From NCBI GenBank assembly GCA_947478725.1, contig CANJWZ010000017.1:5901-69900 (forward strand): DNA of 64,000 bases, written 5' to 3'. Positions 31,379-50,042 of this stretch are shown here, piece after piece. The position numbers and the translations under genes were made by a program. Below the pieces are notes generated by a model. It was not told where the DNA came from, did no database searches, and saw only the letters and a program-made list of their open reading frames with translations. Every line of letters begins with the position of its first letter. Position 1 is the stretch's first letter. The DNA is from Comamonadaceae bacterium. GTDB taxonomy: Bacteria > Pseudomonadota > Gammaproteobacteria > Burkholderiales > Burkholderiaceae_C.

Positions 31379-31395
31379 TGCACAACTATGGTGCA
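31379..31395. promoter_or_regulatory. NtrC binding site upstream of the glnA promoter
   Basis: TGCAC-AACTATG-GTGCA, about 130 bp upstream of the sigma-54 site. Confidence 0.8.
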
Positions 31396-31399
31396 AAAA

Positions 31400-32221: not shown

Positions 32222-32247
32222 GAAAAAAACAAAGGTAAAAAAAAGAT

Positions 32248-33144: not shown

Positions 33145-33192
33145 GGCCTAAGAATAACGCCTTGACCAGACGTGTTGCATTAGGATGAGGCC

Positions 33193-33966
33193 ATGCCATG
33201 TTTAAACATCAACGGCCAGCAGCTTGAGGTCAGGCGCATCGAAGGGTCTGCCGCGCTGGCCCCGCTTGTTTTTTTGCACGAAGGCCTGGGCAGCGTCAGC
33301 CTGTGGACGCAGCGCGGACTGGACTGGCCGCTGGCCCTTTGCCAGGCGACCGGGCGCGCCGGGGTGGTCTATTCACGGCGTGGTTATGGGCAGTCTGAAG
33401 CGGCGCCGCCGGGCCGCCAAGAGCTGGGGCCCGACTACTTGCACAGCGAAGCCTGGGACGTGCTGCCCGCCTTGCTGGCCCAACTCGGCATTGGGCATCC
33501 AGTGCTGCTGGGCCATTCAGACGGGGCAACGATTGCCCTGCTTTACGCCAGCCGCCACCCGGTCGCGGCCTGCATCGCGATGGCCCCGCATGTGCTGGTT
33601 GAACCTGTTGCAAAAACGGCCATCATGGCGGCCAAAGCAGCCTTTGAGACCGGCGGCCTGCGCGAGCGCTTGGCCAAACACCATGACGACGTAGACGGCG
33701 CGTTCTGGCAATGGAACGACGTGTGGCTGTCAAAAGCCTTTGCCAGCTTTGACATTCGCCCTGACTGCCAACGCATCACCGCCCCCCTGCTGCTGGTCCA
33801 AGGCCTGAACGACGAGTACGGCACCATGCTGCAACTCGACGAAATCGCGCTGGCCGCACCGCATGCGCAGCAACTCAGGCTGGCCGACTGCGGGCATTCA
33901 CCCCACCGTGATCAGCCACAGCCTTGCATCGAAGGCGTGATCGAGTTTTTGAACAAAGTTGGTTAA
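33193..33966 (+). CDS. Alpha/beta-fold hydrolase
   Basis: HEGLGS, GHSDG nucleophile elbow, DEYG, GHSPH. Confidence 0.88.
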   Translation: MPCLNINGQQLEVRRIEGSAALAPLVFLHEGLGSVSLWTQRGLDWPLALCQATGRAGVVYSRRGYGQSEAAPPGRQELGPDYLHSEAWDVLPALLAQLGIGHPVLLGHSDGATIALLYASRHPVAACIAMAPHVLVEPVAKTAIMAAKAAFETGGLRERLAKHHDDVDGAFWQWNDVWLSKAFASFDIRPDCQRITAPLLLVQGLNDEYGTMLQLDEIALAAPHAQQLRLADCGHSPHRDQPQPCIEGVIEFLNKVG

Positions 33967-34015
33967 TGCTCTATTTTTAGGAGCTGATGGGGCAGGTATT
34001 ATTTGGCCTAGAGCC
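33967..34015 (-). repeat. Interspersed ~50-bp repeat, copy 4
   Basis: Minus strand GGCTCTAGGCCAAATAATACCTGCCCCATCAGCTCCTAAAAATAGAGCA aligns with copy 2. Confidence 0.55.
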
Positions 34016-34048
34016 TGACTTGATGCGGGCTGTCAAAGCCTCACCCCT

Positions 34049-35038
34049 TCATTCAGCCTGAATATTGGCTTCTTTCGCAACAACGCCAAGTCGCTCCGCA
34101 TCCACGCGGATCAGCTTCATCATGTTGGTTGAATTCATGACGTAGGGCTCCAAACCGGCGGCCTCGAGTCGCGCTTTCATGTCGGGATCGGTGAAGGTTT
34201 TGGCAACTGTCGCAATATCGGCTTCGATCTTCTTTTGAACCGCTGGCGGCGTGGCGCGTGGTGCCATAAAGCCGTAGTAGTTGTCTAAAGACATGTCCTT
34301 GAGCTCAGGGATGCCAGACTCTCGCGCCGTCGGGACATCCGGCAGGGTTGGGCTTCGTTTGGATGACATCATGGCGATGGGCTTGAGCGAACCCTGCTTG
34401 ACAAATGCGCTCATGGCTGTGACGTTGGCCATGACGATGCTGATCTGTCCGCCAAGCGCATCCATGACTGCGGGTGTGCAACCGCGGTAAGGGATGTTTT
34501 GTGCTTCCAGCTTCAGGGCGTGCTTGTACATTTCCATCGAAAAATGCTGGGGGCTGGCCATGTTGCAGGCAGAGTATTGGTACTTGCCGGGGGCGGCCTT
34601 GAGGATATCGGTCAGTTCTTTGAGGTTCGTCGCCTTGATCGATGGTGTGACCGCCAGCATGGTGGCCGTCGAGGTGACCAAGCCCAGCGGCGCAAAGTCC
34701 TTGGTGTAGTCGTACGGCAGGTTTTTCAGCAGCACGTGATTGATGACGTGGGTGTTGGTCGCCAGCAGCAGCGTGTAGCCATCGGCTGGTGCGCGAAACA
34801 CGAACTCGGCACCGATGGAGCCGCCACCGCCAACGCGGTTTTCTACCGTGACAGGCTGCTTCCACAGGGCAGATAGTTTTTCTGCAAAAAGGCGTGCCGT
34901 TGCATCAGCAGCACCGCCTGGCGTGAAGGTGGCCACGATCCTGACTGGCCGGCTGGGGAAGTCCTGAGCCTGAGCGAAAGGATGCAGAAAATTAAAGCTG
35001 AGCGCTACAAAAAGAAGTATTTTTTTAGACCAAGGCAT
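34049..35038 (-). CDS. Bug/TctC-family solute receptor
   Basis: FPSRPVRIVATFTPGGAAD, VENRVGGGGSIG, DGYTLL, YRG motifs. Confidence 0.9.
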   Translation of the reverse strand: MPWSKKILLFVALSFNFLHPFAQAQDFPSRPVRIVATFTPGGAADATARLFAEKLSALWKQPVTVENRVGGGGSIGAEFVFRAPADGYTLLLATNTHVINHVLLKNLPYDYTKDFAPLGLVTSTATMLAVTPSIKATNLKELTDILKAAPGKYQYSACNMASPQHFSMEMYKHALKLEAQNIPYRGCTPAVMDALGGQISIVMANVTAMSAFVKQGSLKPIAMMSSKRSPTLPDVPTARESGIPELKDMSLDNYYGFMAPRATPPAVQKKIEADIATVAKTFTDPDMKARLEAAGLEPYVMNSTNMMKLIRVDAERLGVVAKEANIQAE

Positions 35039-35163
35039 ATGAAGTTCCTGAAAAATTAAAAGTACAAAATGAATGTTTTGATGAATGTTTTGAAAACGAG
35101 AGAAAGACAGAACGAGATAGAGAGGGAGCAGGCGTCAGCGCTGTCGACGACACATGCGATGAA

Positions 35164-36156
35164 TCAATTTTTAGCCAACTCAAGCGCCGGCCCATAAAAC
35201 AATTCCTCGGCGTTCACCCTGCGGGGCGATATGCCTTGCTCGTGGTGGTAGCGTGTGAAGGTGTCAAGAACGTGCTTGTTTTCGGCAAAGCCGTAGCTCC
35301 AGTAATCCTCGCCCATCAGGCGTTGGGTCACCTCCAGCTCGGCCACGCTCCATGGCAAGGTCACTGCAAGATGGCCAATCTGTTTGAGCTCTTCGGTTGC
35401 CAGTTTTTTGGCCTCAAGAAAGCCTTTGTAGATGCTCACAGGCAGCCACGGATGCTTGTCAACCAGGCTTTGACGGATGCCCACAACATGCATGGTCGGA
35501 AAAATCCGCGTCTTTGAAAAGTAATCCTGCTCGGCTTGTCTGAAGTCGGGAAAAAGCCGAACCACGTTGGGGTTGCCGTTCAAGAAACACGAGGGTGCCT
35601 TCGCGCCAAACACGGCATCGAGCTCGCCGCTTTCGAGTAACTGCGACAAGGTGGCATCACCGGGGATTTGCTCAACCTCAATGCCTTCAGGCAAGGTGAT
35701 GGGCGAGCGCTCCTGGCGGCCGGGTTGCTCCAGGCCGCCGCGACGCCAGCGTATGTCTTCAGGCCGCACGCCGTACTCATCAAGCAGCATGCCGCGTATC
35801 CACACATTGGCGGTGATCTGGTATTCAGGAATGCCGACCTTTTTGCCTTTCAGGTCTGACGGGCTACGGATGCCGCGGTCAGCGCGAACGTAAATGCCAG
35901 AGTGACGAAACGCGCGCGATAAAAACGCCGGAACCGCTACATACTTGGCTGTGGAGCGGGCAATATTGAGGGTGTGGCTGCTCAAGGACATTTCGCAAAC
36001 ATCGAATTCTTGGCCGCGAAAGACGCGGTGAAAAATCTCTTCAGGTTCCAGCGCAAAGGGAATCAGCGAACAGCCTTCCATCCTGACCCGTCCATCAAAA
36101 ATACCTTTGGTTCTGTCGTAGTTGCAGCAGCCAAGGCTGAGTTCAAGTGTCTTCAT
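35164..36156 (-). CDS. 4,5-dihydroxyphthalate decarboxylase-like protein (periplasmic-binding-protein fold)
   Basis: YDRT, EEIFHR, FDVCEMSLSS, FRHSGIY, FPTMHVV, YHHEQG. Confidence 0.75.
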   Translation of the reverse strand: MKTLELSLGCCNYDRTKGIFDGRVRMEGCSLIPFALEPEEIFHRVFRGQEFDVCEMSLSSHTLNIARSTAKYVAVPAFLSRAFRHSGIYVRADRGIRSPSDLKGKKVGIPEYQITANVWIRGMLLDEYGVRPEDIRWRRGGLEQPGRQERSPITLPEGIEVEQIPGDATLSQLLESGELDAVFGAKAPSCFLNGNPNVVRLFPDFRQAEQDYFSKTRIFPTMHVVGIRQSLVDKHPWLPVSIYKGFLEAKKLATEELKQIGHLAVTLPWSVAELEVTQRLMGEDYWSYGFAENKHVLDTFTRYHHEQGISPRRVNAEELFYGPALELAKN

Positions 36157-36270
36157 ATCTTCTTTTAAACGTCACGGTTGTTAATCTGCATAGTTGTTTT
36201 GTCAATCATCCCGTGGGGTGGAAGTTTTAAACACAGCCTGGCTAGCACGCAAGGCGCATGCCACAAAGCA

Positions 36271-36536
36271 TCACGTCTTTAACGCGTCGAATGCGCCAGC
36301 GATTTTAGACCCAGCCAAGCTGCAGGCCGCCAAATCCCCAGCCGTCAACCAGCGCCACTGCCCGGCCTTCAAATCCGCTGGTAAATCAAGCGAGCCAATC
36401 CGCGAGCGGTGCAAGCCACCAACGCCGCCCTCGCCTTCAACCCGGTTCCCCACCGCTGCAATCATGCGTTTGACCTGGTGGTATTTGCCTTCTGTCAGCG
36501 TCAGGCTCAATTGGTTGGGGCCAGTTTGAACGCAGG
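36271..36536 (-). pseudogene. Displaced 3' end of rsuA (direct-repeat copy)
   Basis: 36326-36536 matches 43229-43439 at 199 of 211 nt; continues to a different C-terminus (CSLAGSKIAGAFDALKT*). Confidence 0.92.
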
Positions 36537-37083
36537 TTGAGAGTGAATTGGAATCTGACCCCGATTCTTGTCATCGAGCATTCAGTGTTTGACTGGGGAT
36601 TGGCCTTGTTCTGCCCATCAAAAGCAGTAGAAACCGTTTTTTGCCTGTCTTCAACTATGTTTTAGGCCTTCAATCCAAGAGATATCCTCACGACCAGCTC
36701 CCGAATCAATAGCAGCCAACAATGAATTGGAATCTGACTAGACTTGTTTCAAATTGTTTTTATACTAGTGAAAGCTTTTCGGCACCGCTTTGCAAGATTC
36801 CGGCACTTGTTGAAACTTACCAAGCTGGCCGACTTTAGTTAAGCGTAGGGAAAAGCTTTCCATCGGCACCGTCTGCCAGATTGGGAGTTGACTGAGCTCC
36901 GCAACCCAAAGCGAGTAAAAAATACTTTTTTGCGTTTTTAATATGCTTTTGGCCTGTAACCAAATAGATACCAGATTGCAACGCTTCTTTATTGATAGCT
37001 AATCTGATTTTTTGACCTAACAATTGGAATAATTAGCTATGGCCTCGCTAATTGAAGGATTTCAAATTCGTTGTTTCTTCGTG

Positions 37084-37190
37084 CAAAGAGAATCGCCCGA
37101 TGAGCGAGCTCATCGGGCGATCGGTTATGGCACTTGGTTAGTGCTTAGTTGCCAAGACAAATTTAGTTGCCAGCGGCTTACTTGATAGAA
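37084..37190 (-). ncRNA. Predicted tracrRNA
   Basis: Anti-repeat TCTATCAAGTAAGCCGCTGGCA pairs with repeat positions 13-34 and GTCTTGG-C-AAC with positions 1-10; then TAAG, a GCACT/AGTGC hairpin, and a perfect 14-bp terminator stem at 37092-37121. Confidence 0.85.
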
Positions 37191-37195
37191 ACAGG

Positions 37196-37223
37196 ATGTT
37201 ACCACATGAAAAGTAAAAATCAA
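37196..37223 (-). promoter_or_regulatory. Putative tracrRNA promoter overlapping the cas9 start
   Basis: Minus strand TTGATT-16-TAACAT with an extended TG; predicted +1 near 37189-37190, the anti-repeat start. Confidence 0.55.
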
Positions 37224-40200
37224 ACTTCATACCGCTTGGGTATAGATATTGGTACGGGTTCAGTTGCATGGGCAGCTATGGCATTGGATGAAAAAAATCA
37301 GCCAACCCGCCTGATGGCCAGTGGCACGACGATCTTCGGCGAGCCAGTTCTTCCCAAAGAAATGAAGCTCAAAAACGAAGAGCGTCGTCGCGCGCGGCTC
37401 ATGAGAAGGCAGACAGAGCGCAAGCGGGAACGTATATCCAAAATCATGCACTTGGCTGCTGCGCTGCAAGTCACACCTGAAAAATTAGCCTCTGCTCTGC
37501 TTGCACACAAAGAAACGCAAACCCTTTGGCAACTACGCGTTAAAGCTTTGGATAACCGGGTATCGCTCGAAGAGTTTTTTCTAATCGTATTGCGACTGGC
37601 AAAGAACCGCGGTTACAACGGTGACGCCCCAAAACCTAACCAAAAAGGAGATCTTGGAAAAGTGGGCCAAGGTCTCGAAGCAACTAAAAAATTAGTTGAA
37701 AGTCTCAAGACTACACAAGAAATCCGTACTGTCTCCGAAGCAATATGGCTCAGCCAGGCGATGTTGCCGCTAAACCAGAAGAAGTTTCGCAAGCGGGTTG
37801 AAACTGGCACCTACGTCCTGCGGAGTGACATCAAAAATGAATTTGATCTCATACTAAAGGAGCAGTTAAAACATCACGACATGTTGGGCAAGCCTTTGGA
37901 TTTAATTTATCCCCCGCGAAAAGAATCATCCATAAAAACTGCGGATGGCAGGCCAAATCCGCACCCGGGCACACGATATTTCTGGGGGCACACGCCCGAA
38001 ACGATTGGCGAGGCCGTCAAAGTGGCCGTGTTCTACCAAAAGCCGCTGCAACCCTTCAAAGACAAAATTGGAACTTGTACTCTTGATAAAACCAGCTTGC
38101 GCGTGGTGGCGGCGCACCCAGCACATCAAGCATTCAGAATCGAAAAGTTATTGGCCGATCTGCGCTGGGGTGACTCAAAAAGCACAGATCGACTGACATC
38201 AGATCAAAAAAACTTCTTGCGAGAAAAACTCGAATTAACCGAAAACGCTAGCTTTTCAGCAATCTACAAGGAACTCGATAAAGCGGGTCTGATGCAGCCA
38301 GATGGATTGATTCTGAATTTTCATACGCCAAGACGCGACCATTTGAGAGGCAATACAACTCGCGCGCGCTTACGGGGCCTGAAACTCCTTGAAGCGTTTG
38401 AGTTACTGACTTTGCAGGAACAAAGCGACGTATTTCTTGCTCTTGCAGATGATGTGAATTCACCAGAAACCTGGCGGCACGACGGTGCACGAGATTTTGT
38501 CGTTTCAGAATATGGTGCGGCTGTCGCTAGTTTTATAGACTTTATTGCAGATTCAAAAGACGGTCTTGACCGCTTGCGCGCCATGGCTTTTGATGCAGGT
38601 CGCGTTAGTTATGGCGCACCCGCATTGGTGGCGCTAACCAAAGCTATGAGGGATGAAAATATTGATGAGCATTCAGCCATCAACAAGCTGTATCCGCATC
38701 ATCATAAAAAGCAAAATGCGACAGGCTACTTGGCGGAAGTTTCGACACTAGAACTGCGCTCGCCGGTAGTTGAGCACGCACTGCTCTACACGCGCCGCGA
38801 ACTGATGGCGGCTGTGAAGCGTCTTGGCCCACCGCAATCAATGGTAATCGAGCTGGCCAAGGAGGTTAAATCAACGCTGGAGCAGCGAGACAAAACGACA
38901 AGCAAGCAGCGGTATGAGGAGAGTCAAAACAAAAAAGCCAGAGAAGCCATTCTGGATGCGAATTGTAAAATTACCAACACCAGCATACTGCGGTACAAGT
39001 TGTGGAAAGAGCAAGCTGAACACTGCCCGTACAGCGGCAAAAGGATAGGCTCGGTTGCTGACGCAGTAAGCGGCACAAACTACGACATAGAGCACATCGT
39101 CCCCAAAAGACTCCACGGTGTTGGCAATCGTTTCGAAGAAATCGTACTCGCTTCGAAACAATTCAACACCCTAAAAGCTGGTCATGAAACGCCTTATTTA
39201 GCATCCAAGCGGGTTGGGAATACCGTGTGGAACTGGGCAGATACAGAACAGGCTTTGAAGTTTATTGAAAAAGAAAACAAACAGTTCATCAAAAAGGCCA
39301 AGCTCATCCGCGACAAGACTGAATTCAGAGTTGACGAGTTGGATGACGACGCCTTTGTAGACCGCCAACTGCAAGAGACGCAGTGGATTGGCCGGATTGT
39401 GCAAAACTGGTGTTCGCAACTTTGTAACGATGTAACGGTGGTACGCGGTGGCCTGACGGCAGAATTGCGCCGAGACTGGGGCTTCCATACTGTGCTTGAA
39501 CAGGTGCGCATCGCCGAGGGCAGGCACGGCAGTGAGAAAGCAAAAACGCTTTTCTATAAACCCAACCGTGTTGGTGAGTTGATATTTGACAAACGCTCAG
39601 ATCACAGACACCACCTGATTGACGCATGCGTCATTGCACTGTCTACAAGGCAAAACTACACAGATGCGGTGAAAGCCAGAAATGCCCGCGCTGCTGGCCG
39701 CAAAGCTAGTTATGCAGCCCCTGAATGCCCTATCCCCAGTTTGCGCGAACATCTGGTCAAGATGCTGAATGGCTACTGCGTATGGCATGCACCAGATCAC
39801 AAAGTGGCAGGTTTGATGTTTGATCAAATGCCATTCGGACTTGGTAAAGATGGCCAATCATTGTTCAAAAACAACACCAAAACCAGCAACAAGTTCAATC
39901 CCAAAATTGACAAGCTTATTGCCCATACAGATCGCCACGGCCGAAAACATCAGAAAGCTGTTTTAAAAAGCGAAGCTGCTTGTTTTCGCGTGACCGCAGC
40001 AGATGGAATTGAATCGGTAAATATTGCCCAGTTTATGCAAACGTACATGAGTGATGGGGTTCTCTACGTTCCAAGAAATGAGCGCCTGATATTCAAAGGC
40101 GATCTTTTAATCTTTAAAGATGAAGCCCAGGTTTACAAAGTCGCACAATTGAAAGAAGGTGAAGGTGTTTGCGCTGTACATGCTGTCGAAACTGCAACAT

Positions 40201-40328
40201 TTGACGATTTAAAAACAACTGGTCTGAACAGAAGATTTAGCAGGGTAAAAGACCTGCTTGAAGCGCTCGTTGTTTGTCACCCAATTGAACTCGCCATTCA
40301 CGCTAAAGCGCACAAACAGGCTCGATGA
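37206..40328 (+). CDS. cas9: Type II-C Cas9, 1040 aa
   Basis: RuvC-I LGIDIG, Arg-rich bridge helix, KNRGY, RuvC-II VIELAKE, HNH DIEHIVP...FNTLK, RuvC-III HRHHLIDA; followed by cas1 and cas2 only. Confidence 0.95.
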   Translation: MKSKNQTSYRLGIDIGTGSVAWAAMALDEKNQPTRLMASGTTIFGEPVLPKEMKLKNEERRRARLMRRQTERKRERISKIMHLAAALQVTPEKLASALLAHKETQTLWQLRVKALDNRVSLEEFFLIVLRLAKNRGYNGDAPKPNQKGDLGKVGQGLEATKKLVESLKTTQEIRTVSEAIWLSQAMLPLNQKKFRKRVETGTYVLRSDIKNEFDLILKEQLKHHDMLGKPLDLIYPPRKESSIKTADGRPNPHPGTRYFWGHTPETIGEAVKVAVFYQKPLQPFKDKIGTCTLDKTSLRVVAAHPAHQAFRIEKLLADLRWGDSKSTDRLTSDQKNFLREKLELTENASFSAIYKELDKAGLMQPDGLILNFHTPRRDHLRGNTTRARLRGLKLLEAFELLTLQEQSDVFLALADDVNSPETWRHDGARDFVVSEYGAAVASFIDFIADSKDGLDRLRAMAFDAGRVSYGAPALVALTKAMRDENIDEHSAINKLYPHHHKKQNATGYLAEVSTLELRSPVVEHALLYTRRELMAAVKRLGPPQSMVIELAKEVKSTLEQRDKTTSKQRYEESQNKKAREAILDANCKITNTSILRYKLWKEQAEHCPYSGKRIGSVADAVSGTNYDIEHIVPKRLHGVGNRFEEIVLASKQFNTLKAGHETPYLASKRVGNTVWNWADTEQALKFIEKENKQFIKKAKLIRDKTEFRVDELDDDAFVDRQLQETQWIGRIVQNWCSQLCNDVTVVRGGLTAELRRDWGFHTVLEQVRIAEGRHGSEKAKTLFYKPNRVGELIFDKRSDHRHHLIDACVIALSTRQNYTDAVKARNARAAGRKASYAAPECPIPSLREHLVKMLNGYCVWHAPDHKVAGLMFDQMPFGLGKDGQSLFKNNTKTSNKFNPKIDKLIAHTDRHGRKHQKAVLKSEAACFRVTAADGIESVNIAQFMQTYMSDGVLYVPRNERLIFKGDLLIFKDEAQVYKVAQLKEGEGVCAVHAVETATFDDLKTTGLNRRFSRVKDLLEALVVCHPIELAIHAKAHKQAR

Positions 40329-41245
40329 GGACTGAGCGCGTCATCGCCATTGAAAATCCCTGCCGCTTAAGCATTGATACAGCACGACTAAAAATAGATC
40401 GGGAAGGTAGCAGCACTTTTGTAGCAATCGTGGACATGGCGGTACTGGTCATTGATACCGTACAGATTGAGCTGACTGCCGGCGTCCTACGCGAACTGGC
40501 GCAATCGGATGTCGCAGTCATCGTTACTGATTCACGTCACTATCCGGTTGCGCTGGTTGCACCAGTCAAAGCACATACGCACACAGTCCGACGTCAACGC
40601 CTGCAAGCGGCACTTTCCCAAACGTTTGCAGACGTAATGTGGGCCACCACTATTCGCGCAAAGTTAAGAAATCAGGCGCGATTTTTATCAGCCCAAGGTA
40701 CAACTGCGCCGCTTGCCCGCCTAGAACGCATGGCAGCGACCATTGCGCCAGGTGACCCTGAAAATTTTGAGGCGCAAGGCGCAAAGCTTTATTGGAAAGA
40801 TGTTTTCAAAGACAGCTTCAAAAGAGCAAAGCAGGATGCGCCCGACACACGCAACGCAGCTCTGAACTTTGGTTATGCCATCTTGCGCGGACTGTTCAGC
40901 CGGTATATCGCCATCGCTGGTCTGTCACCCGTATTTGGGTTTGGGCATAGCAATTTTGAGAACCCTTGCTGTTTGGTCGATGACTTGATTGAGCCCTTTC
41001 GCCCATGCGTTGATGCGCTGGTAGCAACCGCTATCTATATCGAAAATGAATTCGATTCCAAGGCCAAGAAAACAATGCTCAGACTATTGGAATGCGAGGC
41101 GTTGTTTGAGCGTAAAGATGTGCAGGTTCGCTACAGAATGCACGCGGCAGTATCTGAAACCGTAAACGCTTATGTCAGAGCGCTGGAGACGCAATGTGAA
41201 AACGCAATGGCTTTCCCAAGCGGTTTCGTCCTCCCACTTGGCTGA
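40325..41245 (+). CDS. cas1: Type II Cas1
   Basis: ENFEAQGAKLYW, RNAALNFGYAILR, GH...LVDDLIEPFRP; ATGA overlap with cas9. Confidence 0.95.
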   Translation: MRTERVIAIENPCRLSIDTARLKIDREGSSTFVAIVDMAVLVIDTVQIELTAGVLRELAQSDVAVIVTDSRHYPVALVAPVKAHTHTVRRQRLQAALSQTFADVMWATTIRAKLRNQARFLSAQGTTAPLARLERMAATIAPGDPENFEAQGAKLYWKDVFKDSFKRAKQDAPDTRNAALNFGYAILRGLFSRYIAIAGLSPVFGFGHSNFENPCCLVDDLIEPFRPCVDALVATAIYIENEFDSKAKKTMLRLLECEALFERKDVQVRYRMHAAVSETVNAYVRALETQCENAMAFPSGFVLPLG

Positions 41246-41291
41246 TAACGGCGAGAACGATGGCTACGACCCTGGTCCATTTTTCCGCACC

Positions 41292-41603
41292 ATGTGGCTA
41301 ATCTGCGCTTTCGATTTGCCAACCGACAGCAAGCTTGCGCGTCGCAGATACACGCAATATCGAAAACTATTATTGACCCACGGATTTGATCATTTGCAGC
41401 ACTCGGTGTATTGCAGGCACTTCCCTAATTTTGAACAAGCCCGAAATATGGCAACGCGCATGGGTACAGCAACACCGGAAGACGGAAAGGTTGATTTTTT
41501 GTTTTTGACAGACAAGCAACTAGGTCTTACGCTAAGTTTTCTTGGCCCCAAGGCACGTGATGAACCCTTATTTGAAGAGCCCGAGCAGGGTGCCTTGTTC
41601 TAA
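41292..41603 (+). CDS. cas2: Cas2
   Basis: MWLICAFDLP, GFDHLQHSVY; an in-frame TTG at 41238 is an alternative start. Confidence 0.9.
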   Translation: MWLICAFDLPTDSKLARRRYTQYRKLLLTHGFDHLQHSVYCRHFPNFEQARNMATRMGTATPEDGKVDFLFLTDKQLGLTLSFLGPKARDEPLFEEPEQGALF

Positions 41604-41608
41604 TACGG

Positions 41609-41646
41609 AAACTAAAATCCCCGCTAAATCAACGACTTAGCGGGGA
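41609..41646 (-). terminator. Terminator for the minus-strand array transcript, within the leader
   Basis: Perfect 10-bp stem TCCCCGCTAA/TTAGCGGGGA; followed by TTTTAGTTT on the minus strand. Confidence 0.7.
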
Positions 41647-41649
41647 CAT

Positions 41650-43073
41650 AGTCTATCAAGTAAGCCGCCGACAGAGCCTTGGAACAATGGTCTTGAGGTG
41701 AAGGTCACGCCTGTCAGTCTATCAAGTAAGCCGCCGACAGAGCCTTGGAACGGCAGAGGGTGTTCATGCCACACCTCCAATAGTCTATCAAGTAAGCCGC
41801 CGACAGAGCCTTGGAACGGTAAAGGGTGTTCATGCTGCACCTCCAATAGTCTATCAAGTAAGCCGCCGACAGAGCCTTGGAACTCCTCCTCCTGCAACAA
41901 CTAGATAGTCAACAGTCTATCAAGTAAGCCGCCGACAGAGCCTTGGAACGGCAAGTACGATGTGGTGGCAACCACTGGCAGTCTATCAAGTAAGCCGCCG
42001 ACAGAGCCTTGGAACAGCAATCTTTAACCCAGCCACGTTTGCCGGAGTCTATCAAGTAAGCCGCCGACAGAGCCTTGGAACCAGTGGAAAAGAGATGCTC
42101 TCCCTGACCTACAGTCTATCAAGTAAGCCGCCGACAGAGCCTTGGAACAACGCGAGGGCGATGTAGGCACTTACCACTAGTCTATCAAGTAAGCCGCCGA
42201 CAGAGCCTTGGAACACCGGGCGCAGCGGGTTGTCTCATGGTTCAAGTCTATCAAGTAAGCCGCCGACAGAGCCTTGGAACAAGTTCCTCTTGCGAGAATG
42301 TCTTGCTTGGAGTCTATCAAGTAAGCCGCCGACAGAGCCTTGGAACGTGTTGGGTGCCAGGTCCGCCGTGGTGGCTAGTCTATCAAGTAAGCCGCCGACA
42401 GAGCCTTGGAACCTGGCGCGTGACATTGACAAAAACGCGACCAGTCTATCAAGTAAGCCGCCGACAGAGCCTTGGAACCTGCGTCAATGGCGTAGCGCAC
42501 GTCACCAAAAGTCTATCAAGTAAGCCGCCGACAGAGCCTTGGAACCCGTGGTGGGCGAGCTGGTCTGACTTCAAGAGTCTATCAAGTAAGCCGCCGACAG
42601 AGCCTTGGAACAATAGCTGGAAATGGCGGTGCAGGACTTACAGTCTATCAAGTAAGCCGCCGACAGAGCCTTGGAACGAGGGCTTCACGGTGGGGTCAGA
42701 GTGATTGAGTCTATCAAGTAAGCCGCCGACAGAGCCTTGGAACTTTGTGAGCTTTTTTGACCAGCTTGAACTCAGTCTATCAAGTAAGCCGCCGACAGAG
42801 CCTTGGAACAGGGCGGGCGGGCTTTGGGTGAGCAGCGCAAGTCTATCAAGTAAGCCGCCGACAGAGCCTTGGAACGGCGGCGACGGTGACGATGTGGCCT
42901 TTTCGAGTCTATCAAGTAAGCCGCCGACAGAGCCTTGGAACTGACATGCACGTCTCCTTTCCTAGCGCCCAAGTCTATCAAGTAAGCCGCCGACAGAGCC
43001 TTGGAACATCGCTGGCATAGCGCCGTCACTGGGCGAGAGTCTATCAAGTAAGCCGCCGACAGAGCCTTGGAAC
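41650..43073 (-). CRISPR. CRISPR array, 22 identical 36-bp repeats and 21 spacers (30 nt; two of 31 nt)
   Basis: Repeat on + is AGTCTATCAAGTAAGCCGCCGACAGAGCCTTGGAAC; crRNA sense is GTTCCAAGGCTCTGTCGGCGGCTTACTTGATAGACT. Orientation inferred from the 5' GTT, the anti-repeat and the terminator. Confidence 0.98.
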
Positions 43074-43206
43074 AGTGACTTCAAACGTATGCGTCCGGCT
43101 ACCACACATTGCGGGAATGCTGACATCCAGAGATAGTGTGAGCGATAAACATCATGCACACCATGGCGAGCGAGACTCGCACCACCCAAGCCCCAAAACG
43201 TCAGTT

Positions 43207-43953
43207 CTACTTCCCAGAGCCCGCAATAGCCGCCAAATCCCCACCCGTCAACCAGCGCCACTGCCCGGCCTTCAAATCCGCTGGTAAATCAAGCGAGCCT
43301 ATCCGCGAACGGTGCAAGCCTCCCACGCCGCCTTCGCCTTCAACGCGATTGCCAACCGCTGCAATCATGCGTTTGACCTGGTGGTATTTGCCTTCTGTCA
43401 GCGTCAGGGTCAATTGGTTGGGGCCAGTTTGCACGCAGGCTGCGGCTTTGACGGGCTTGGGGTCGTCGTCCAGCACCACGCCGCTCAGCAGTTTTTGCAC
43501 CTGCTTGTCGTCTACCGCGTGCTTGGCCGTGACCTCGTACACCTTGGGCACATGGTGTTTGGGTGAGCTCATGCGGTGGATGAACTTGCCGTCGTCTGAC
43601 AGCAGCAGCAGGCCTGTGGTGTCCTGGTCGAGCCGCCCAACCGCTTGCACGCCCGCTGCAGCGCCGCCGCCGCGCTGGCGAATGGGCGCGGGCAACAAGG
43701 TGTAGATGCTCGGGTAGGTGCTGGGCTTTTGCGAGCATTCGTAGCCTGCGGGTTTGTGCAGCATCAAATAGGCTTTTTCGTGGTACTGCCAGTCAACGCC
43801 CTGCACTTTGAAGTTCAGGCCCGCTGCCGCAAAATCAGCCGTTGGGTCATCGACCACCACGCCCGCCACCACCACCAGGCCTTGCTGCACCAGCCCCGAG
43901 CAAACGCGCCGCGTGCCAAAGCCTTGAGAAAAAAGAATGTCTTGAAGTTGCAT
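43207..43953 (-). CDS. rsuA: 16S rRNA pseudouridine synthase, RsuA family
   Basis: S4 domain, LHKPAGY, VGRLDQDTTGLLL, TEGKYHQVKRM. Confidence 0.92.
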   Translation of the reverse strand: MQLQDILFSQGFGTRRVCSGLVQQGLVVVAGVVVDDPTADFAAAGLNFKVQGVDWQYHEKAYLMLHKPAGYECSQKPSTYPSIYTLLPAPIRQRGGGAAAGVQAVGRLDQDTTGLLLLSDDGKFIHRMSSPKHHVPKVYEVTAKHAVDDKQVQKLLSGVVLDDDPKPVKAAACVQTGPNQLTLTLTEGKYHQVKRMIAAVGNRVEGEGGVGGLHRSRIGSLDLPADLKAGQWRWLTGGDLAAIAGSGK

Positions 43954-44024
43954 GGCCGATATTGTCGCCGCACGCTAACCGGCGCAAAGCGTGAAAATAG
44001 CGCTTCTCGCATCACAAAGATTTC

Positions 44025-45398
44025 ATGTCCGCAACCCTTCCGCAACCGCCGCCGCTGGCGGCCCCCATCCAGGGCAAATTCGTCACCGGCTCTACCCTCA
44101 AACATGTTTTAAACATGACCGCCGCAGGCTCGGTCGGGCTGATTGCGATCTTTGCGGTGGACTTGCTGAACCTGTTTTACATCTCGCTGCTGGGCCAAAA
44201 AGAGCTGGCTGCCGCCGTTGGCTATGCGGGGACGCTGCTGTTTTTTGTGCTGTCGGCCGGCATCGGCCTGGCCATCGCGGTGAGCGCCGTCACCTCGCGC
44301 GCGCTGGGCCAGGGTGACCGGGAGCGCGCCAAAAGCCTGGCCGGTGCGTCGCTGGTGTTGATGGTCAGCAGCATGACAGTCGTGGCGGCTGTGGCCTTTC
44401 CTTTTTTAGACCCGCTGCTGCGGCTGCTGGGGGCCACTGGCGTGACGGCCGAGCTGGCGCTGCGATTTAGCCGCATCGTGATGCCGTCTGCACCGCTGTT
44501 GGGTGCGGGCATGTGCCTGGGCGCGCTGCTGCGTGCGCTGGGCGACGGCAAACGGTCGATGTATGTGACGCTGGGCGCGGGTGCGGCCACGGCCGTGCTG
44601 GACCCCTTGCTGATCTTTGGCCTGGGGCTGGGCCTGGACGGTGCGGCGATTGCCACCGTGCTGGCCCGCTTTGTGATGCTGGGTATCGGGCTGTATGGCT
44701 TGCTGCGCGTGCACAAGCTGTTTGCCTGGCCCAGCGGGGCGGTGCTGCGCAGCACGTTCAAGCCATTTTTTTCGATTGGCCTGCCGTCGGTGTTGACGCA
44801 AATCGCCACGCCCGTGGGCAACTCCTTCGTCACCGCCGCCATTGCGCCGTATGGTGACGATGCAGTCGGCGGCTGGGCGGTGGTGGGGCGGATCATTCCT
44901 GTCGCCTTTGCCGCGCTGTTTGCCCTGTCAGCGGCGGTTGGCCCGATCCTTGGGCAAAACCTGGGGGCGAAGCGCTACGACAGGCTGCAGTCGACCATGC
45001 GCGATGCCTTGAAAGTCGTGGTGCTTTACGTGCTGGCTGTGTGGCTGCTGATGGGCCTATGCAGCACGCTGATTGCCAGCGTGTTTGGCGCGGTGGGCCA
45101 GGGCCGCGAGGTGATTGTGTTTTTCTGTGTGTTTGTGGCGGGCAGCTACGTGTTTAACGGGGCTGTGTACGTGGCCAACGCCGCTTTCAACAACCTCGGC
45201 TACGTGCTGTATTCAACCGCCCTGAATTGGGGCCGCGCCACCCTGGGCGTGGTGCCGTTCATCTGGCTCGGCGGGCATTACTTCGGCATCAAAGGCGTGC
45301 TGGCAGGCTATGGGCTGGGGGTGGTGTTGTTTGGTGTGGTGGGCATTTGGGGCTGCTTCAAGGTGCTCGCGCAAATCGAGCGCAAGGCGGCAGCTTGA
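44025..45398 (+). CDS. MATE-family efflux transporter
   Basis: About 12 membrane helices, LRALGDGKR, LDPLLIFG. Confidence 0.9.
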   Translation: MSATLPQPPPLAAPIQGKFVTGSTLKHVLNMTAAGSVGLIAIFAVDLLNLFYISLLGQKELAAAVGYAGTLLFFVLSAGIGLAIAVSAVTSRALGQGDRERAKSLAGASLVLMVSSMTVVAAVAFPFLDPLLRLLGATGVTAELALRFSRIVMPSAPLLGAGMCLGALLRALGDGKRSMYVTLGAGAATAVLDPLLIFGLGLGLDGAAIATVLARFVMLGIGLYGLLRVHKLFAWPSGAVLRSTFKPFFSIGLPSVLTQIATPVGNSFVTAAIAPYGDDAVGGWAVVGRIIPVAFAALFALSAAVGPILGQNLGAKRYDRLQSTMRDALKVVVLYVLAVWLLMGLCSTLIASVFGAVGQGREVIVFFCVFVAGSYVFNGAVYVANAAFNNLGYVLYSTALNWGRATLGVVPFIWLGGHYFGIKGVLAGYGLGVVLFGVVGIWGCFKVLAQIERKAAA

Positions 45399-45433
45399 CG
45401 GCTGCCTTCGGGTTCATCAAGGCATAGATCGCA

Positions 45434-45820
45434 TCAAGGTACAGAGCGCATCACCGCACCGACCAGACCAGCGAGCCCCAGCAACACCGTGGGCAAGAAC
45501 GTCAGCCCAAAGCCCAAACCGCGCTTGGCAGGGTCAGCCACATAAGCGCGCTGGTAAATGGCCCGCCCGACCAGATACACCACACCGACAGAGGCCACAT
45601 ACACGGGCGGCCAGTAGGCGGCGGCGATCAGCAGTGCCGGCAGAAAGCAAACCAATTGCTCAAGGGTGTTCATCTGCACCCGGGCGGCACGCTCAAAATG
45701 CTCGTTACCCGTCATGGCCGGGGCCTTGATGCCGTACTTGCCGCGCGCTTGGCCGACCAGAATGCCGAAGTAAATGAACTGAAAAACAGCCAGCAAGGCG
45801 ACGATGTGGACGGAATTCAT
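45434..45820 (-). CDS. MAPEG-family membrane protein
   Basis: FERAARVQMNTLEQL, GRAIY. Confidence 0.88.
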   Translation of the reverse strand: MNSVHIVALLAVFQFIYFGILVGQARGKYGIKAPAMTGNEHFERAARVQMNTLEQLVCFLPALLIAAAYWPPVYVASVGVVYLVGRAIYQRAYVADPAKRGLGFGLTFLPTVLLGLAGLVGAVMRSVP

Positions 45821-45856
45821 GGCTTTCCTTTGGGTTGATGACAGGCCTGAAGGCTA

Positions 45857-46437
<581 letters not shown>

Positions 46438-46499
46438 ATTGTGGGTGCCAAAAACGACATTTTTTAACCACCACAGACGGCCACACAAGGCTGGGGCGG

Positions 46500-47141
46500 T
46501 CAGTTTTTCGATTGCGCCAGTTTGTCCATCCATTTGGCCAGTTCGCGTTCGCTGTCATTGCCTTGGCTGTAAAGCGCGTGCATGGCAGCTTGTGCTTCTG
46601 GCCGATGCTGGTTGAGTTTGACCTTGCATTGCATGGCGAGCACCCGCAGCTCAAAGGCCACGATGCCGCCCATCATCTTGTGTTGATAGTCTTCGCCCAG
46701 GCCGCGCCACTGGTCGGCGTAGGCCGGGTCGTGGTCGGCAATCAGGTGCTTGAGCAGCCGGTCTTTGTCGTCAAAGCTTTCAATGATGCTGGCCTCAACG
46801 GTGCAGTGCACCATCAGGTAGTTCCAGGTCGGCACACGGGCTAGGTCGGGGTAGACGCGGGGCGTCATGTAAGCGTGTGGGCCCATGAAAGTGACCACCG
46901 CCTTGGGCCGCGCTGCCAGGTAGCGCCAATGCGGGTTAGGTTTGGCGCAGTGGCCGAGCAACAGGGTTTGGCCGCCCTCACCTTCCCCGGCCAGCAAGTG
47001 CAAAGGCAGTGGCGTGACAAACGGCTGGCCATCGTCGTCAACTGAAATCAGGCTGGCCAGCGGATGCGTGCGTATCAGCTCATGGGCGGTGGCGTTGCCC
47101 GTTGTGCTGTCTTTGGCGATGAATTGTGGCGGCAGGTACAT
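46500..47141 (-). CDS. paiB: FMN-binding negative transcriptional regulator (PaiB family)
   Basis: MYLPPQF, GPHAYMTP, VPTWNY, KLNQH. Confidence 0.85.
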   Translation of the reverse strand: MYLPPQFIAKDSTTGNATAHELIRTHPLASLISVDDDGQPFVTPLPLHLLAGEGEGGQTLLLGHCAKPNPHWRYLAARPKAVVTFMGPHAYMTPRVYPDLARVPTWNYLMVHCTVEASIIESFDDKDRLLKHLIADHDPAYADQWRGLGEDYQHKMMGGIVAFELRVLAMQCKVKLNQHRPEAQAAMHALYSQGNDSERELAKWMDKLAQSKN

Positions 47142-47206
47142 GGTGACTTATTTTGCCAGTCAACAGGGTCAGTCCGGATAGTCAGTCGGCCAGCCGGGCC
47201 GCGCCG

Positions 47207-47392
47207 TCAACACCTTTCAAGCAAGTCGCCAAAACCGGGCACGCGGTCGGTCAGGCCCAGCTGGCGCAGCGTGTACCAGTAACAGGCCACGTTGCAGGCA
47301 ATGACGGGCTTGCCCAGCCAGACCGACGCGGTGGCGGCAAATGCGGCGGTGGCGGTGTTGGTGCCGCACTGCACGATGGCATCCACATCGCC
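47207..47392 (-). pseudogene. C-terminal fragment of a maleate isomerase / arylmalonate decarboxylase-like gene
   Basis: GDVDAIVQCGTN...WLGKPVIACNVACYWYTLRQLGLTDRVPGFGDLLERC*; the 5' part is missing at an abrupt change in base composition. Confidence 0.7.
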
Positions 47393-47513
47393 ATATTTTC
47401 TTTTGCTTTAAAACATACCCGCAGATGTATCGAGCAGGACAACCCCTCTTTGGCCAAAGTGCCTTAAGCACCCACCAAAAACATTGCGACGGGAATTCTC
47501 GTTACAAAATTTC

Positions 47514-49996: not shown

Positions 49997-50042
49997 GCTG
50001 CCAGCCAGTCACTAACTCTTCCGTGTTAAAGGCTTTTGAATT

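What the first reader, a model, noticed from the sequence alone, without database searches (positions are those of the whole stretch)
36271..43439. Cas9 cassette bracketed by two 211-bp direct copies of the rsuA 3' end, with no integrase
Seen: 36326-36536 and 43229-43439 are direct repeats with 12 differences. In the rsuA frame 10 of these are synonymous; the other two are S/T and A/G. Each copy leads into a different rsuA C-terminus. Between them lie only tracrRNA, cas9, cas1, cas2, the array and short AT-rich spacer DNA. Established: elements that integrate into a gene's 3' end displace the native tail and supply a replacement. Inference: the immunity module arrived as a circle carrying a foreign rsuA allele segment and integrated Campbell-style, through RecA or a recombinase acting in trans. 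The synonymous bias fits two selected alleles better than decay of a duplicate. Recombination between the copies could excise the cassette while keeping rsuA intact, giving a pop-in/pop-out CRISPR module.
Basis: partly seen in the sequence, partly recalled or inferred. Interest (0 to 1): 0.88.

Follow-up and report, generated by a model that had tools for sequence, protein, structure and literature searches.

The report
CRISPR-Cas9 cassette docked in rsuA tail
A complete Cas9 immunity module sits inside a 6.9-kb insertion at the end of the rsuA gene of a Polaromonas bacterium. The insertion brought its own copy of the gene's end, so rsuA stays intact. The same broken-gene junction also occurs next to other DNA in related strains, so the cassette looks like swappable cargo at a docking site and not a self-moving element.

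Summary
Copies 36326-36539 (A) and 43229-43442 (B) are 94% identical direct repeats of the rsuA 3' end. They differ at 12 sites, 10 of them synonymous (P about 1e-4). Between them lie only a type II-C module (tracrRNA, cas9, cas1, cas2, 22 repeats), 128 bp, and about 500 bp of non-coding DNA. No recombinase gene lies within 10 kb.

The predicted empty site exists. Related Polaromonas contigs carry an uninterrupted rsuA ending ...CSLAGSKIAGAFDALKT, followed directly by the same neighbour genes. The B tail (IAGSGK) is the ancestral Polaromonas type, so copy B came from another lineage. Both junctions are seen in independent assemblies.

The Campbell-circle story is only partly supported, for three reasons:
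- The 214-bp segment is a hypervariable, recombining part of rsuA, so the synonymous bias does not date or explain the insertion.
- Homologous cassettes in at least five other genomic contexts have no bracketing repeats.
- The junction of the displaced fragment (a 23-nt MITE-like arm plus 8 nt, then rsuA') recurs in two other contigs with a different neighbour and no cassette.

The cassette is best read as passive cargo at a reusable rsuA docking site. Excision was not testable with these tools.

The parts
33193..33966 (+). Alpha/beta hydrolase gene, the ancestral convergent neighbour of rsuA.
   Evidence: A homologue lies within 300 bp of the rsuA stop in 17 of 80 related genome loci and overlaps it by 1-12 bp in 2 more. 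It is 0.9-3.6 kb away in 9 loci. Pfam Abhydrolase_1.
34049..36156 (-). tctC (Bug-family receptor, 34049-35038) and p330 (NMT1/phosphonate-binding-like, 35164-36156). This is an older insertion between rsuA and the hydrolase. It is native to this lineage and linked to the A tail.
   Evidence: Pfam. Neither gene is found downstream of rsuA in any of the 80 other genome loci. They are 97-100% identical in L082-L087 and L097-L101.
36271..36539 (-). Displaced rsuA 3' fragment: copy A (36326-36539) plus the lineage-specific tail CSLAGSKIAGAFDALKT and its stop (36271-36325).
   Evidence: The same tail ends full-length rsuA in the empty-site contigs L082 and L102.
36540..37040 (.). About 500 bp of non-coding, A+T-rich DNA found only at this locus. 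It carries a 23-nt MITE-like arm (36544-36566, read on the minus strand as AATCGGGGTCAGATTCCAATTCA) 4-8 nt from copy A, and a 16-nt partial copy at 36723-36738.
   Evidence: No ORF has a family hit. The region is absent from all other cassette loci. The 16-mer occurs twice here against 0.05 expected by chance. The arm family gave 57 metagenome matches, some as inverted pairs.
37085..37192 (-). tracrRNA: anti-repeat, small hairpin, and terminator hairpin with a U tract.
   Evidence: The anti-repeat 37168-37189 is 91% complementary to every repeat. The predicted duplex with the minus-strand repeat is -79.6 kcal/mol. A terminator-like site lies at 37093-37107 on the minus strand. Similarity among all cassette relatives starts at 37041-37085.
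37206..41603 (+). cas9 (37206-40328, 1040 aa), cas1 (40325-41245) and cas2 (41196-41603).
   Evidence: PADLOC hits: Cas9 4e-64, Cas1_II 3e-83, Cas2_II 4e-30. Pfam Cas9_a and RuvC_III on homologues. Gene calls in L097.
41650..43074 (-). CRISPR array of 22 identical 36-nt repeats and 21 spacers of 30-31 nt, probably transcribed on the minus strand.
   Evidence: The minus-strand repeat starts GTTCCAAGG and ends TGATAGACT, which resembles an extended -10 element (orientation is inferred).
43079..43228 (-). Incoming tail of rsuA (IAGSGK and stop, 43207-43228) and the 128 bp that came with it.
   Evidence: This stretch is found only here and in L081. The tail is of the ancestral DLAAI[AS]G type.
43229..43442 (-). 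Copy B, the 3' end of the working rsuA.
43207..43953 (-). Complete rsuA (16S rRNA pseudouridine-516 synthase, 248 aa).
   Evidence: Pfam PseudoU_synth_2. 80 homologous loci.

Best explanation
The window comes from a Polaromonas genome. The interval between rsuA and a convergent hydrolase gene is a recurrent insertion site in this genus.

Proposed history:
1. In this lineage an older insertion (p330-tctC) had already replaced the ancestral RsuA tail with CSLAGSKIAGAFDALKT.
2. A 6.9-kb block now lies within the last 214 bp of that gene. The block carries its own rsuA 3' end with the ancestral-type tail, taken from another Polaromonas.
3. The result is an insertion-duplication. rsuA is rebuilt from native 5' DNA plus the incoming 3' end (copy B). 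The native 3' end (copy A) is displaced 6.9 kb downstream as a dead fragment.

The cargo of the block is a complete, apparently functional type II-C CRISPR-Cas module with no mobility gene. It is carried passively. Entry, or later exchange of the cargo, went through recombination in the rsuA homology, and the host or a helper supplied the enzymes.

The junction of the displaced fragment is a fixed point: a 23-nt MITE-like arm, 8 nt, then rsuA'. Other strains have this same junction next to different DNA. So the duplication is a reusable docking structure that probably predates or is independent of the cassette. It is not a scar made by the cassette's own arrival.

The two copies, and the rsuA alleles of other strains, keep exchanging sequence. 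That explains why the differences between the copies are mostly synonymous and clustered.

Shown: the anatomy, the empty site, the ancestral type of the B tail, the shared junction, and the absence of mobility genes. Inferred: the direction and order of events, the recombination mechanism, and the ability to excise.
For: - The repeat and its codon pattern are confirmed.
- Empty site: L082 has an uninterrupted rsuA with the A tail followed by p330-tctC. Its identity to the window is 97.3% on the MATE/rsuA 5' side and 97-99% on the p330 side. L102/P0051 is a 259-aa RsuA with the same type of tail, in a cluster of 54 sequences.
- 119 of the 120 listed RsuA clusters lack the A tail, and nearly all of them end in the ancestral DLAAI[AS]G-like tail. 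Only the P0051 cluster has the A tail.
- Hotspot: the hydrolase abuts rsuA in 19 of 80 loci and is separated by other inserts in 9. L002, the closest genome, has a different 3.6-kb insert.
- The cassette's G+C is well below the flanks. Cas9, Cas1 and Cas2 are intact, and all 22 repeats are identical.
- No recombinase family appears among the neighbouring genes.
- Shared junction: L165 and L166 have the arm + 8 nt + rsuA' + A tail + p330. Similarity to the window ends at 36569, the outer end of the arm, and a different ORF end (...GKLGYSWISF*) lies upstream. L084 starts with TCTCAAC and continues into an L082-like rsuA'.
- Allele exchange: the rsuA' fragments carry three different alleles that mirror full-length alleles. 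L084 resembles L082, L165 resembles L102, and L166 resembles the window.
- Presence/absence in one sample: in run X5 the flanks are at 22-27x and the cassette at 4-8x.
- Both junctions are seen in independent assemblies.
Against: - No donor was found. No contig shows rsuA with the IAGSGK tail next to this cassette without copy A.
- The 128 bp and the 500 bp of the block occur nowhere else in what was fetched.
- The left side of the L165/L166 arrangement is unseen. It is not shown that their fragment lies downstream of a full rsuA. It could be at another locus, or it could be a circle junction.
- The L084 evidence is only 7 nt at a contig end.
- The window's copy A differs from all five sampled empty-site-lineage alleles in the LDLPAD block, which it shares with B. 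This needs either an unsampled recipient allele or later conversion.
- Similarity of L082-L085 to the window also ends at 34038, just after tctC. The p330-tctC side therefore has its own breakpoint, which leaves room for the reverse polarity of events.
Confidence: 0.5

Rival explanations
1. One event made everything. A circular DNA carrying 214 bp of a foreign rsuA allele, its tail, the array, the cas genes and the tracrRNA integrated by a single RecA-type crossover within rsuA (Campbell insertion). That event created the duplication, and the reverse crossover can pop the cassette out.
For: The architecture is exactly that of an insertion-duplication. The empty site has the predicted tail. The B tail is a foreign, ancestral type. 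There is no recombinase gene. 214 bp at 94% identity, with identical runs of 54 and 55 bp, is a workable RecA substrate by general knowledge.
Against: The rsuA' junction recurs with a different neighbour and no cassette sequence in L165/L166. The junction is therefore not a private scar of this cassette unless a second event later replaced everything outside the 23-nt arm. No reciprocal hybrid pattern can be read, because both copies differ from the sampled recipient-type alleles. No circle, donor or vehicle was found. Close Cas9 relatives are absent from plasmid, phage and viral collections. Other members of the cassette family show no such brackets.
Confidence: 0.22
2. The block is a non-autonomous member of a family of site-specific elements. 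These elements insert at one fixed nucleotide of rsuA, supply a replacement 3' end, share a conserved right end (the 23-nt arm + 8 nt), and carry different cargo. A recombinase or transposase encoded elsewhere moves them.
For: The fragment starts at the same nucleotide in the window, L165, L166 and L084, with three different fragment alleles. That is expected if several recipients were hit independently. The boundary between conserved and variable sequence lies exactly at the outer end of the arm. The arm belongs to a widespread inverted-repeat element family. Precedent: the MccH47 island has extensive imperfect direct repeats and no recombinase of its own, and both excision and integration were shown experimentally (PMC3191183).
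Against: The conserved end is only about 31 nt. Judged by complete inverted pairs (L121, L131), the polarity of the arm points its outer end away from rsuA', which is the wrong way round for an element terminus abutting the target. The second half-site is in direct, not inverted, orientation and on the same side of the cassette. No candidate recombinase was identified. A single ancient junction followed by homologous allele exchange explains the same data.
Confidence: 0.15
3. Reverse polarity. The native state was rsuA (IAGSGK tail) followed by the cassette. The piece that moved in is arm - rsuA' - A tail - p330 - tctC (34038-36569), taken from a strain of the empty-site lineage.
For: The B tail is the ancestral type. 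The arm-rsuA'-p330 unit occurs in at least two outer contexts, with the break at the arm's outer end. Similarity to L082-L085 also stops sharply at 34038 after tctC, so the unit has two breakpoints. The polarity of the arm fits an element whose interior is the rsuA' side.
Against: The MATE/rsuA 5' flank is as close to the empty-site contig L082 (97.3%) as the p330 side is (97-99%), so both flanks look like the same lineage. No cassette-bearing genome without p330-tctC was found. The tctC-hydrolase junction is shared by contigs over 99% identical (L097-L101). This model needs two illegitimate joins.
Confidence: 0.1
4. The repeat is an assembly or binning artefact that joins two strains.
For: The window is probably from a metagenome assembly. 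Several related strains coexist in the same samples.
Against: L097 (10.6 kb, 99.99%) runs from the hydrolase through copy A into cas2. L081 (11.9 kb of a 28.7-kb contig, 99.97%) runs from the array through copy B into the MATE side. Contigs from three further runs cross the A junction.
Confidence: 0.02

Closest known systems
Type II-C CRISPR-Cas loci (Neisseria meningitidis / Campylobacter jejuni type; a betaproteobacterial example is Bordetella pseudohinzii, PMC4624362)
   Same: The module has only cas9-cas1-cas2. The tracrRNA lies next to cas9. Repeats are 36 nt and spacers 30 nt. The array is read opposite to the cas genes, and each repeat ends in an extended -10-like motif. G+C is lower than in the host.
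   Different: The Cas9 is distant from characterised ones. The best plasmid-borne hit is 25% identical, and database relatives of 75-89% identity are all unnamed metagenome proteins. Here the array abuts the 3' end of a rebuilt housekeeping gene.
Insertion-duplication by Campbell integration of a non-replicating circle (as used for suicide-plasmid mutagenesis; general knowledge)
   Same: The inserted DNA is bracketed by direct copies of the homologous segment. When the segment includes the gene's end, the gene stays intact. The insertion is reversible by the same recombination.
   Different: No vector or circle was seen. The copies are 6% diverged and mosaic. The distal junction is shared with other, non-cassette DNA.
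MccH47 genomic island of E. coli (PMC3191183; also PMC5426353)
   Same: It is a small island with one functional cargo, extensive imperfect direct repeats, and no integrase or excisionase of its own. Mobility functions are supplied by the host. Its attachment sequences are widespread in other strains.
   Different: For H47, excision and integration were shown experimentally and are RecA-independent. Here nothing is shown experimentally. Here the repeats are the coding 3' end of a housekeeping gene.
Integrase-driven islands and prophages that target the 3' end of a gene and carry a replacement end, and their integrase-less derivatives (cis-mobilisable elements; general knowledge)
   Same: There are attL/attR-like direct repeats made of the target's 3' end. 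A displaced native end is present. An empty site exists in relatives. The insertion point is fixed across strains.
   Different: There is no recombinase gene, no recognisable arm-site organisation, and the homology is long (214 bp) and diverged.
Core-gene-flanked defence hotspots (general knowledge of defence-island work in E. coli and Pseudomonas)
   Same: A variable interval between conserved genes holds different inserts in different strains. One of those inserts is a defence system without mobility genes.
   Different: Hotspot turnover is usually pictured as double crossover in both flanking genes, which leaves no duplication. Here one flank is a duplicated gene end.

Membership tests
Type II-C CRISPR-Cas | cas9, cas1 and cas2 present, with no csn2 or cas4 | tested here: met
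   PADLOC hits to Cas9, Cas1_II and Cas2_II. There are no other ORFs with family hits between 36540 and 43206.
Type II-C CRISPR-Cas | tracrRNA with an anti-repeat and a terminator | tested here: met
   A 22-nt anti-repeat is 91% complementary to all repeats. The duplex and terminator hairpin are predicted. The feature is conserved in all relatives. No Rfam family matched.
Type II-C CRISPR-Cas | Regular repeat-spacer array | tested here: met
   22 identical 36-nt repeats and 21 spacers of 30-31 nt.
Integrase-mediated island at a gene's 3' end | Tyrosine or serine recombinase gene inside the element | tested here: not met
   There is none between the repeats and none among the called genes within about 10 kb.
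Integrase-mediated island at a gene's 3' end | Direct repeats made of the target gene's 3' end, and an empty site in relatives | tested here: met
Integrase-mediated island at a gene's 3' end | Excised circle and precise empty site in the same strain | not testable with these tools
   Only Logan contigs built from 31-nt words were available, and they cannot phase a 214-bp repeat.
RecA-type Campbell insertion-duplication | Insert bracketed by the homologous segment, with the gene reconstituted | tested here: met
RecA-type Campbell insertion-duplication | The two copies are reciprocal hybrids of the donor and recipient alleles | tested here: inconclusive
   Both copies are 87-90% identical to the sampled recipient-lineage alleles and 94% identical to each other. 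The recipient allele is unknown and conversion is likely.
RecA-type Campbell insertion-duplication | The distal junction is private to this insert | tested here: not met
   The same junction occurs in L165/L166 with a different outer neighbour.
Integrase-less island moved in trans (MccH47-like) | Extensive imperfect direct repeats, no own recombinase, and junction sequences present in other strains | tested here: met
   The comparison rests on PMC3191183.
Integrase-less island moved in trans (MccH47-like) | Demonstrated excision and integration | not testable with these tools
   This needs an isolate or long reads.
MITE- or IS-bounded (composite) transposon | Inverted terminal repeats at both ends and a target-site duplication | tested here: not met
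   Both arm copies are on the same side of the cassette and in direct orientation. There are no shared words of 9 nt or more at the cassette boundaries here or in 6 related loci.
CRISPR-associated transposon or casposon | Tn7-like tns/tniQ genes, or a Cas1 casposase with a polymerase and terminal inverted repeats | tested here: not met
   The gene content is only cas9, cas1 and cas2.

The most novel reading that the evidence does not exclude
The end of rsuA in these Polaromonas is the attachment point of a family of small elements that lack a recombinase gene. Each element inserts at one fixed nucleotide and repairs the gene with its own 3' end. Each ends in a 23-nt arm of a widespread inverted-repeat element and carries interchangeable cargo, one of which is a complete CRISPR-Cas9 system. 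A helper enzyme encoded elsewhere, possibly the transposase that moves the inverted-repeat elements, would insert and excise them. That would give a true pop-in/pop-out route for CRISPR-Cas.
Probability: 0.15. Interest if true: 0.75.

Novelty: new variant of a known kind. Interest (0 to 1): 0.45.

Why it matters
How complete CRISPR-Cas loci move between genomes without mobility genes of their own is still poorly documented case by case. This locus offers four things together: a documented empty site, a donor-type gene end, an intact cassette, and a junction shared with other cargo. That makes the entry route concrete and testable, with one-sided homology in a housekeeping gene and duplication in place of replacement. 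If the fixed junction reflects a trans-acting enzyme, it would be a new way to mobilise defence systems. If not, it is a clean natural example of insertion-duplication and gene conversion at a defence hotspot. That would be useful but not surprising.

Tried and rejected
- **Donor search.** I scanned the genome collection with RsuA. The 80 loci returned are Polaromonas and other Comamonadaceae, and none has cas9, cas1, cas2 or p330. P0057, whose RsuA C-terminal region is identical to copies A and B, was looked up, but no DNA was available for its contig.
- **Vehicles.** No relative of this Cas9 turned up in the IMG/VR contigs. Plasmid records hold only hits of 32% identity or less.
- **Other cassette copies.** At least five other contexts share no rsuA piece, no bracketing repeats of 40 nt or more, no shared words of 9 nt or more at the boundaries, and no spacers with the window.
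- **Protospacers.** Two spacer patterns gave no exact match in viral contigs. I did not pursue this further.
- **The 500-bp region.** It has no ORF with a family hit, no Rfam match, and no copy elsewhere among the fetched loci.
- **The ORF end upstream of the arm in L166.** No Pfam hit passed its cut-off. There was no PADLOC, plasmid or phage match, and no copy in the window or in other loci.
- **Circles and excision.** Two 'skip' joints of 6950 and 7015 bp were seen in Logan contigs of X3 and X4. They are out of register (an in-register skip is 6903 bp) and have only 21-36 nt on one side. I read them as diverged empty-site strains, not as excision products.
- **A possibly converted copy A.** An X7 contig links B-type bases at the nine clustered sites to the 500-bp region. 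This could be a converted copy A or a bubble-popping artefact of the assembler, so I do not count it as evidence.
- **Literature.** Searches found no report of rsuA as an integration site or of Campbell-type acquisition of CRISPR-Cas.

Full report
**1.

The repeat finder returns 36326-36539 and 43229-43442 as a two-copy direct repeat of 214 nt at 94% identity, 6903 bp apart (aligned). Both copies lie on the minus strand in the frame of rsuA.

Copy B is the end of a complete 248-aa rsuA (43207-43953) ending ...WRWLTGGDLAAIAGSGK. Copy A is a fragment that starts inside the gene and ends ...WRWLTAGDLAACSLAGSKIAGAFDALKT.

Of the 12 differences, 10 are synonymous and 2 are conservative (S/T and A/G). 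A Nei-Gojobori count that also takes in the junction codon gives 10 synonymous and 3 non-synonymous differences, pS 0.19, pN 0.019. The chance of so many synonymous changes is about 1e-4.

**2. What lies between the copies**

- About 500 bp of non-coding DNA (36540-37040).
- A tracrRNA on the minus strand (about 37085-37192). Its 22-nt anti-repeat is complementary to every repeat. It has a long predicted duplex with the minus-strand repeat and a terminator hairpin with a U tract.
- cas9 (1040 aa from 37206), cas1 and cas2 (PADLOC E-values 4e-64, 3e-83 and 4e-30).
- 22 identical 36-nt repeats with 21 spacers.
- 128 bp up to the rsuA stop codon.

This is a complete type II-C module and nothing else. 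G+C is 0.43-0.52 over the tracrRNA and cas genes and 0.51-0.56 over the array, against roughly 0.55-0.70 in the flanks. The precomputed Pfam families of the genes about 10 kb to either side include no integrase or transposase.

**3. It is not an assembly artefact**

An independent ENA contig (L097, 10.6 kb) matches 31069-41685 at 99.99%. It runs from the hydrolase gene through tctC, p330, copy A and the cas genes. Another contig (L081) matches 42099-53953 at 99.97% and runs from the array through copy B and beyond. Logan contigs of three further runs cross the copy A junction.

**4. Organism and ancestral locus**

The 80 genome loci found with RsuA are Polaromonas and other Comamonadaceae. The closest is a Polaromonas MAG with 95% amino-acid and 85% nucleotide identity in rsuA.

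In 19 of these loci a convergent alpha/beta-hydrolase gene abuts rsuA. This gene is the homologue of window 33193-33966. In 9 loci it is 0.9-3.6 kb away with other genes in between. The closest genome, L002, has two unknown genes and a tctC paralogue there. None of the 80 loci has cas genes or p330. The interval downstream of rsuA is therefore a recurrent insertion site. In the window it holds two nested insertions: p330-tctC and the cassette block.

**5.

Looking up the exact p330 protein returned contig L082. It reads MATE (partial) - rsuA - p330 - tctC with no cassette. Its RsuA ends ...DLAACSLAGSKIAGAFDALKT. Its identity to the window is as follows:

| Segment | Identity to window |
|---|---|
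| MATE / rsuA 5' side | 97.3% |
| A tail and spacer | 98.2% |
| p330 | 98.9% |
| tctC | 96.9% |

A second empty-site allele (L102, protein P0051, 259 aa, cluster of 54 sequences) has the same type of tail.

Of the 120 listed RsuA clusters, 119 lack the A tail and nearly all of those end DLAAI[AS]G-like. The B tail, IAGSGK, is of that ancestral type. The A tail is therefore native to the lineage that owns p330-tctC. Copy B with its tail and the 128 bp behind it came from a Polaromonas without that older insertion.

**6. The synonymous bias carries less weight than it seems**

The 214-bp segment is the most variable part of the gene among close strains. Copies A and B are each only 87-90% identical to the empty-site alleles L082, L084 and L102. 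Those alleles are themselves only 89-91% identical between the two allele types (L082/L084 against L102). Meanwhile the DNA on both sides of the segment is 97-99% identical.

The divergence drops sharply at the DLAA boundary. That boundary is where homology with ordinary rsuA genes ends. This is what is expected if the segment is repeatedly overwritten by rsuA alleles from other Polaromonas.

Nine of the twelve A/B differences lie in one 55-bp patch (36397-36451). Both window copies share an LDLPAD-coding block that all five sampled alleles of the empty-site lineage lack.

Differences between two sequences that are both drawn from, or converted by, working alleles will be synonymous whatever the history of the duplication. 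No reciprocal donor/recipient hybrid pattern can be read.

**7. The cassette family moves, but not with these brackets**

Cas9 proteins of 75-89% identity are all unnamed metagenome proteins. They sit in at least five other contexts:
- between an AraC regulator and a SpoU methylase gene (L088/L089)
- after an amine-oxidase gene (L090, with a DUF8196 gene in between in L104; L091 and L105-L107 are shorter contigs of these cassettes)
- before a ketopantoate reductase gene (L092-L096)
- in one further context (L103)

Similarity to the window always begins at 37041-37085, just beyond the tracrRNA terminator, and ends with the last repeat.

None of these loci has an rsuA piece, a bracketing repeat of 40 nt or more, a shared word of 9 nt or more at the boundaries, or a spacer in common with the window. 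The 500 bp and the 128 bp are private to the window's locus. No close relative is on a plasmid, phage or viral contig.

**8. The key new result concerns the copy A junction**

Four nucleotides from copy A lies TGAATTGGAATCTGACCCCGATT (36544-36566). A 16-nt partial copy lies 179 bp further on. Two such matches are found against 0.05 expected by chance.

Read on the minus strand this is AATCGGGGTCAGATTCCAATTCA. A scan of metagenome contigs found 57 matches to this pattern. Many are one arm of a short inverted-repeat element in unrelated contigs. It is therefore a MITE- or REP-like arm.

A search with the copy A peptide returned two short proteins (P0171, 96 aa; P0172, 79 aa). Their contigs, L166 and L165, come from glacier-stream metagenomes. 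Both carry the same arm, the same 8 nt, rsuA' starting at the same nucleotide, the A tail, and p330.

Their similarity to the window stops at 36569, the outer end of the arm. Upstream lies the end of an unrelated ORF (...GKLGYSWISF*) in place of the 500 bp and the cassette. That ORF end matched no family, plasmid or phage.

The three fragment alleles differ and mirror full-length alleles. L084 resembles L082, L165 resembles L102, and L166 resembles the window. A Logan contig in run X5 shows the same junction with yet another continuation.

The truncated rsuA' and its junction are therefore not a private scar of the CRISPR cassette.

**9. Interpretation**

The anatomy is an insertion-duplication at the end of rsuA. 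The gene is rebuilt with an incoming 3' end, and the native end is displaced. The cassette has no mobility gene and behaves as cargo.

Alternatively it existed before, and the cassette was swapped in by recombination using rsuA on one side and the arm-rsuA' junction on the other. This cannot be settled here. The shared junction makes the second reading at least as likely as the first.

A site-specific or transposase-mediated mechanism acting at the fixed nucleotide is possible. It fits the sharp boundary at the arm. However, the polarity of the arm, the direct orientation of the two half-sites and the lack of any candidate enzyme argue against it.

The reverse polarity, with p330-tctC and rsuA' moving in beside a native rsuA-cassette locus, is kept as a minor rival. 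Two facts support it: similarity to L082-L085 also ends sharply at 34038, just after tctC, and those contigs continue with a related arm, a REP-like sequence and a permease gene in place of the hydrolase.

**10. Excision**

In run X5 the flanks are at 22-27x and the cassette at 4-8x, so cassette-free and cassette-bearing relatives coexist in one sample. This is strain-level presence and absence, not shown excision.

All available runs are kept as contigs built from 31-nt words, which cannot phase a 214-bp repeat. Two out-of-register skip joints and one contig with B-type bases linked to the copy A side are not reliable evidence.

With identical runs of 54 and 55 bp in the repeat, RecA-mediated loss is plausible on general grounds. 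It would leave an intact rsuA with the A tail.

**11. Comparison with known systems**

- The module is a regular type II-C system.
- The architecture equals a Campbell insertion-duplication.
- The closest described natural analogue is the MccH47 island of E. coli: a small single-function island with extensive imperfect direct repeats and no recombinase of its own, moved by host functions (PMC3191183).
- It also resembles integrase-less derivatives of islands that target a gene's 3' end, and defence hotspots flanked by core genes.
- It is not a composite transposon, a CRISPR-associated transposon or a casposon.

I found no report of rsuA as an insertion site or of this route for CRISPR-Cas.

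**12. Verdict**

It is a new variant of a known kind, of moderate interest. It would become more interesting if the fixed junction proves to be the handle of a trans-mobilised cargo family.

Noticed in passing
window 36544-36566 and 36723-36738; L082 3407, L083 2337, L084 2532, L085 2413; L121, L131: A 23-nt arm, AATCGGGGTCAGATTC[CG]AATTCA, belongs to a widespread short inverted-repeat (MITE/REP-like) element, with 57 metagenome matches. In this Polaromonas lineage it was seen only at the rsuA-downstream locus, each time at or near a boundary between conserved and variable DNA.
   Followed up: partly
window 34038 (just after the tctC stop); L082-L085: Similarity between the window and the empty-site-lineage contigs ends sharply at 34038. 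Those contigs continue with a related arm, a REP-like TAGCTGC... sequence and the end of an amino-acid permease gene in place of the hydrolase. This is a second, independent breakpoint at the locus.
   Followed up: partly
window 43290-43345 / 36390-36450; L082 about 990-1040: The RsuA loop ...NRVEGEGGVGGLHRSRIG... is hypervariable among close strains. Alleles include GEGAEKGSGGGS with indels in L082/L084, GGGGAGG in L102, and shorter EDVGG or EG forms in other Polaromonas. Recombination or diversifying change is concentrated in about 60 bp of a housekeeping gene.
   Followed up: partly
window 41753-41782 and 41819-41848: Two neighbouring spacers near the cas2 end of the array (second and third) differ at only 5 of 30 positions. 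This suggests repeated acquisition from variants of one target. Logan contigs also show alternative spacers at this end (loose ends at 41883-42154), which suggests the array is active there.
   Followed up: partly
window 41650-43074, minus strand: Each repeat ends in TGATAGACT on the minus strand. This resembles an extended -10 element, as in Neisseria type II-C arrays where every repeat carries its own promoter. rsuA transcription would also read into the array in the same direction.
   Followed up: no
run X5 on window 35000-44500: The flanks are covered at 22-27x but the cassette only at 4-8x, and 36634-37218 is not covered at all. The dominant strain lacks the cassette, and the cassette-bearing minority may have different DNA between the arm and the tracrRNA.
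   Followed up: partly
window 43440-43446 and 36322-36330: The word GC(A/G)GCCTGC occurs both at the 5' edge of the 214-bp segment in full-length rsuA and at the point where copy A runs into the A tail. This could be a microhomology linked to how the older p330-tctC insertion replaced the tail, or it could be chance.
   Followed up: no
L088/L089 about 11014-11036: In another member of the cassette family the last CRISPR repeat lies within about 20 bp of the stop codon of a convergent SpoU methylase gene. As with rsuA here, the array end abuts the 3' end of an RNA-modification gene.
   Followed up: no
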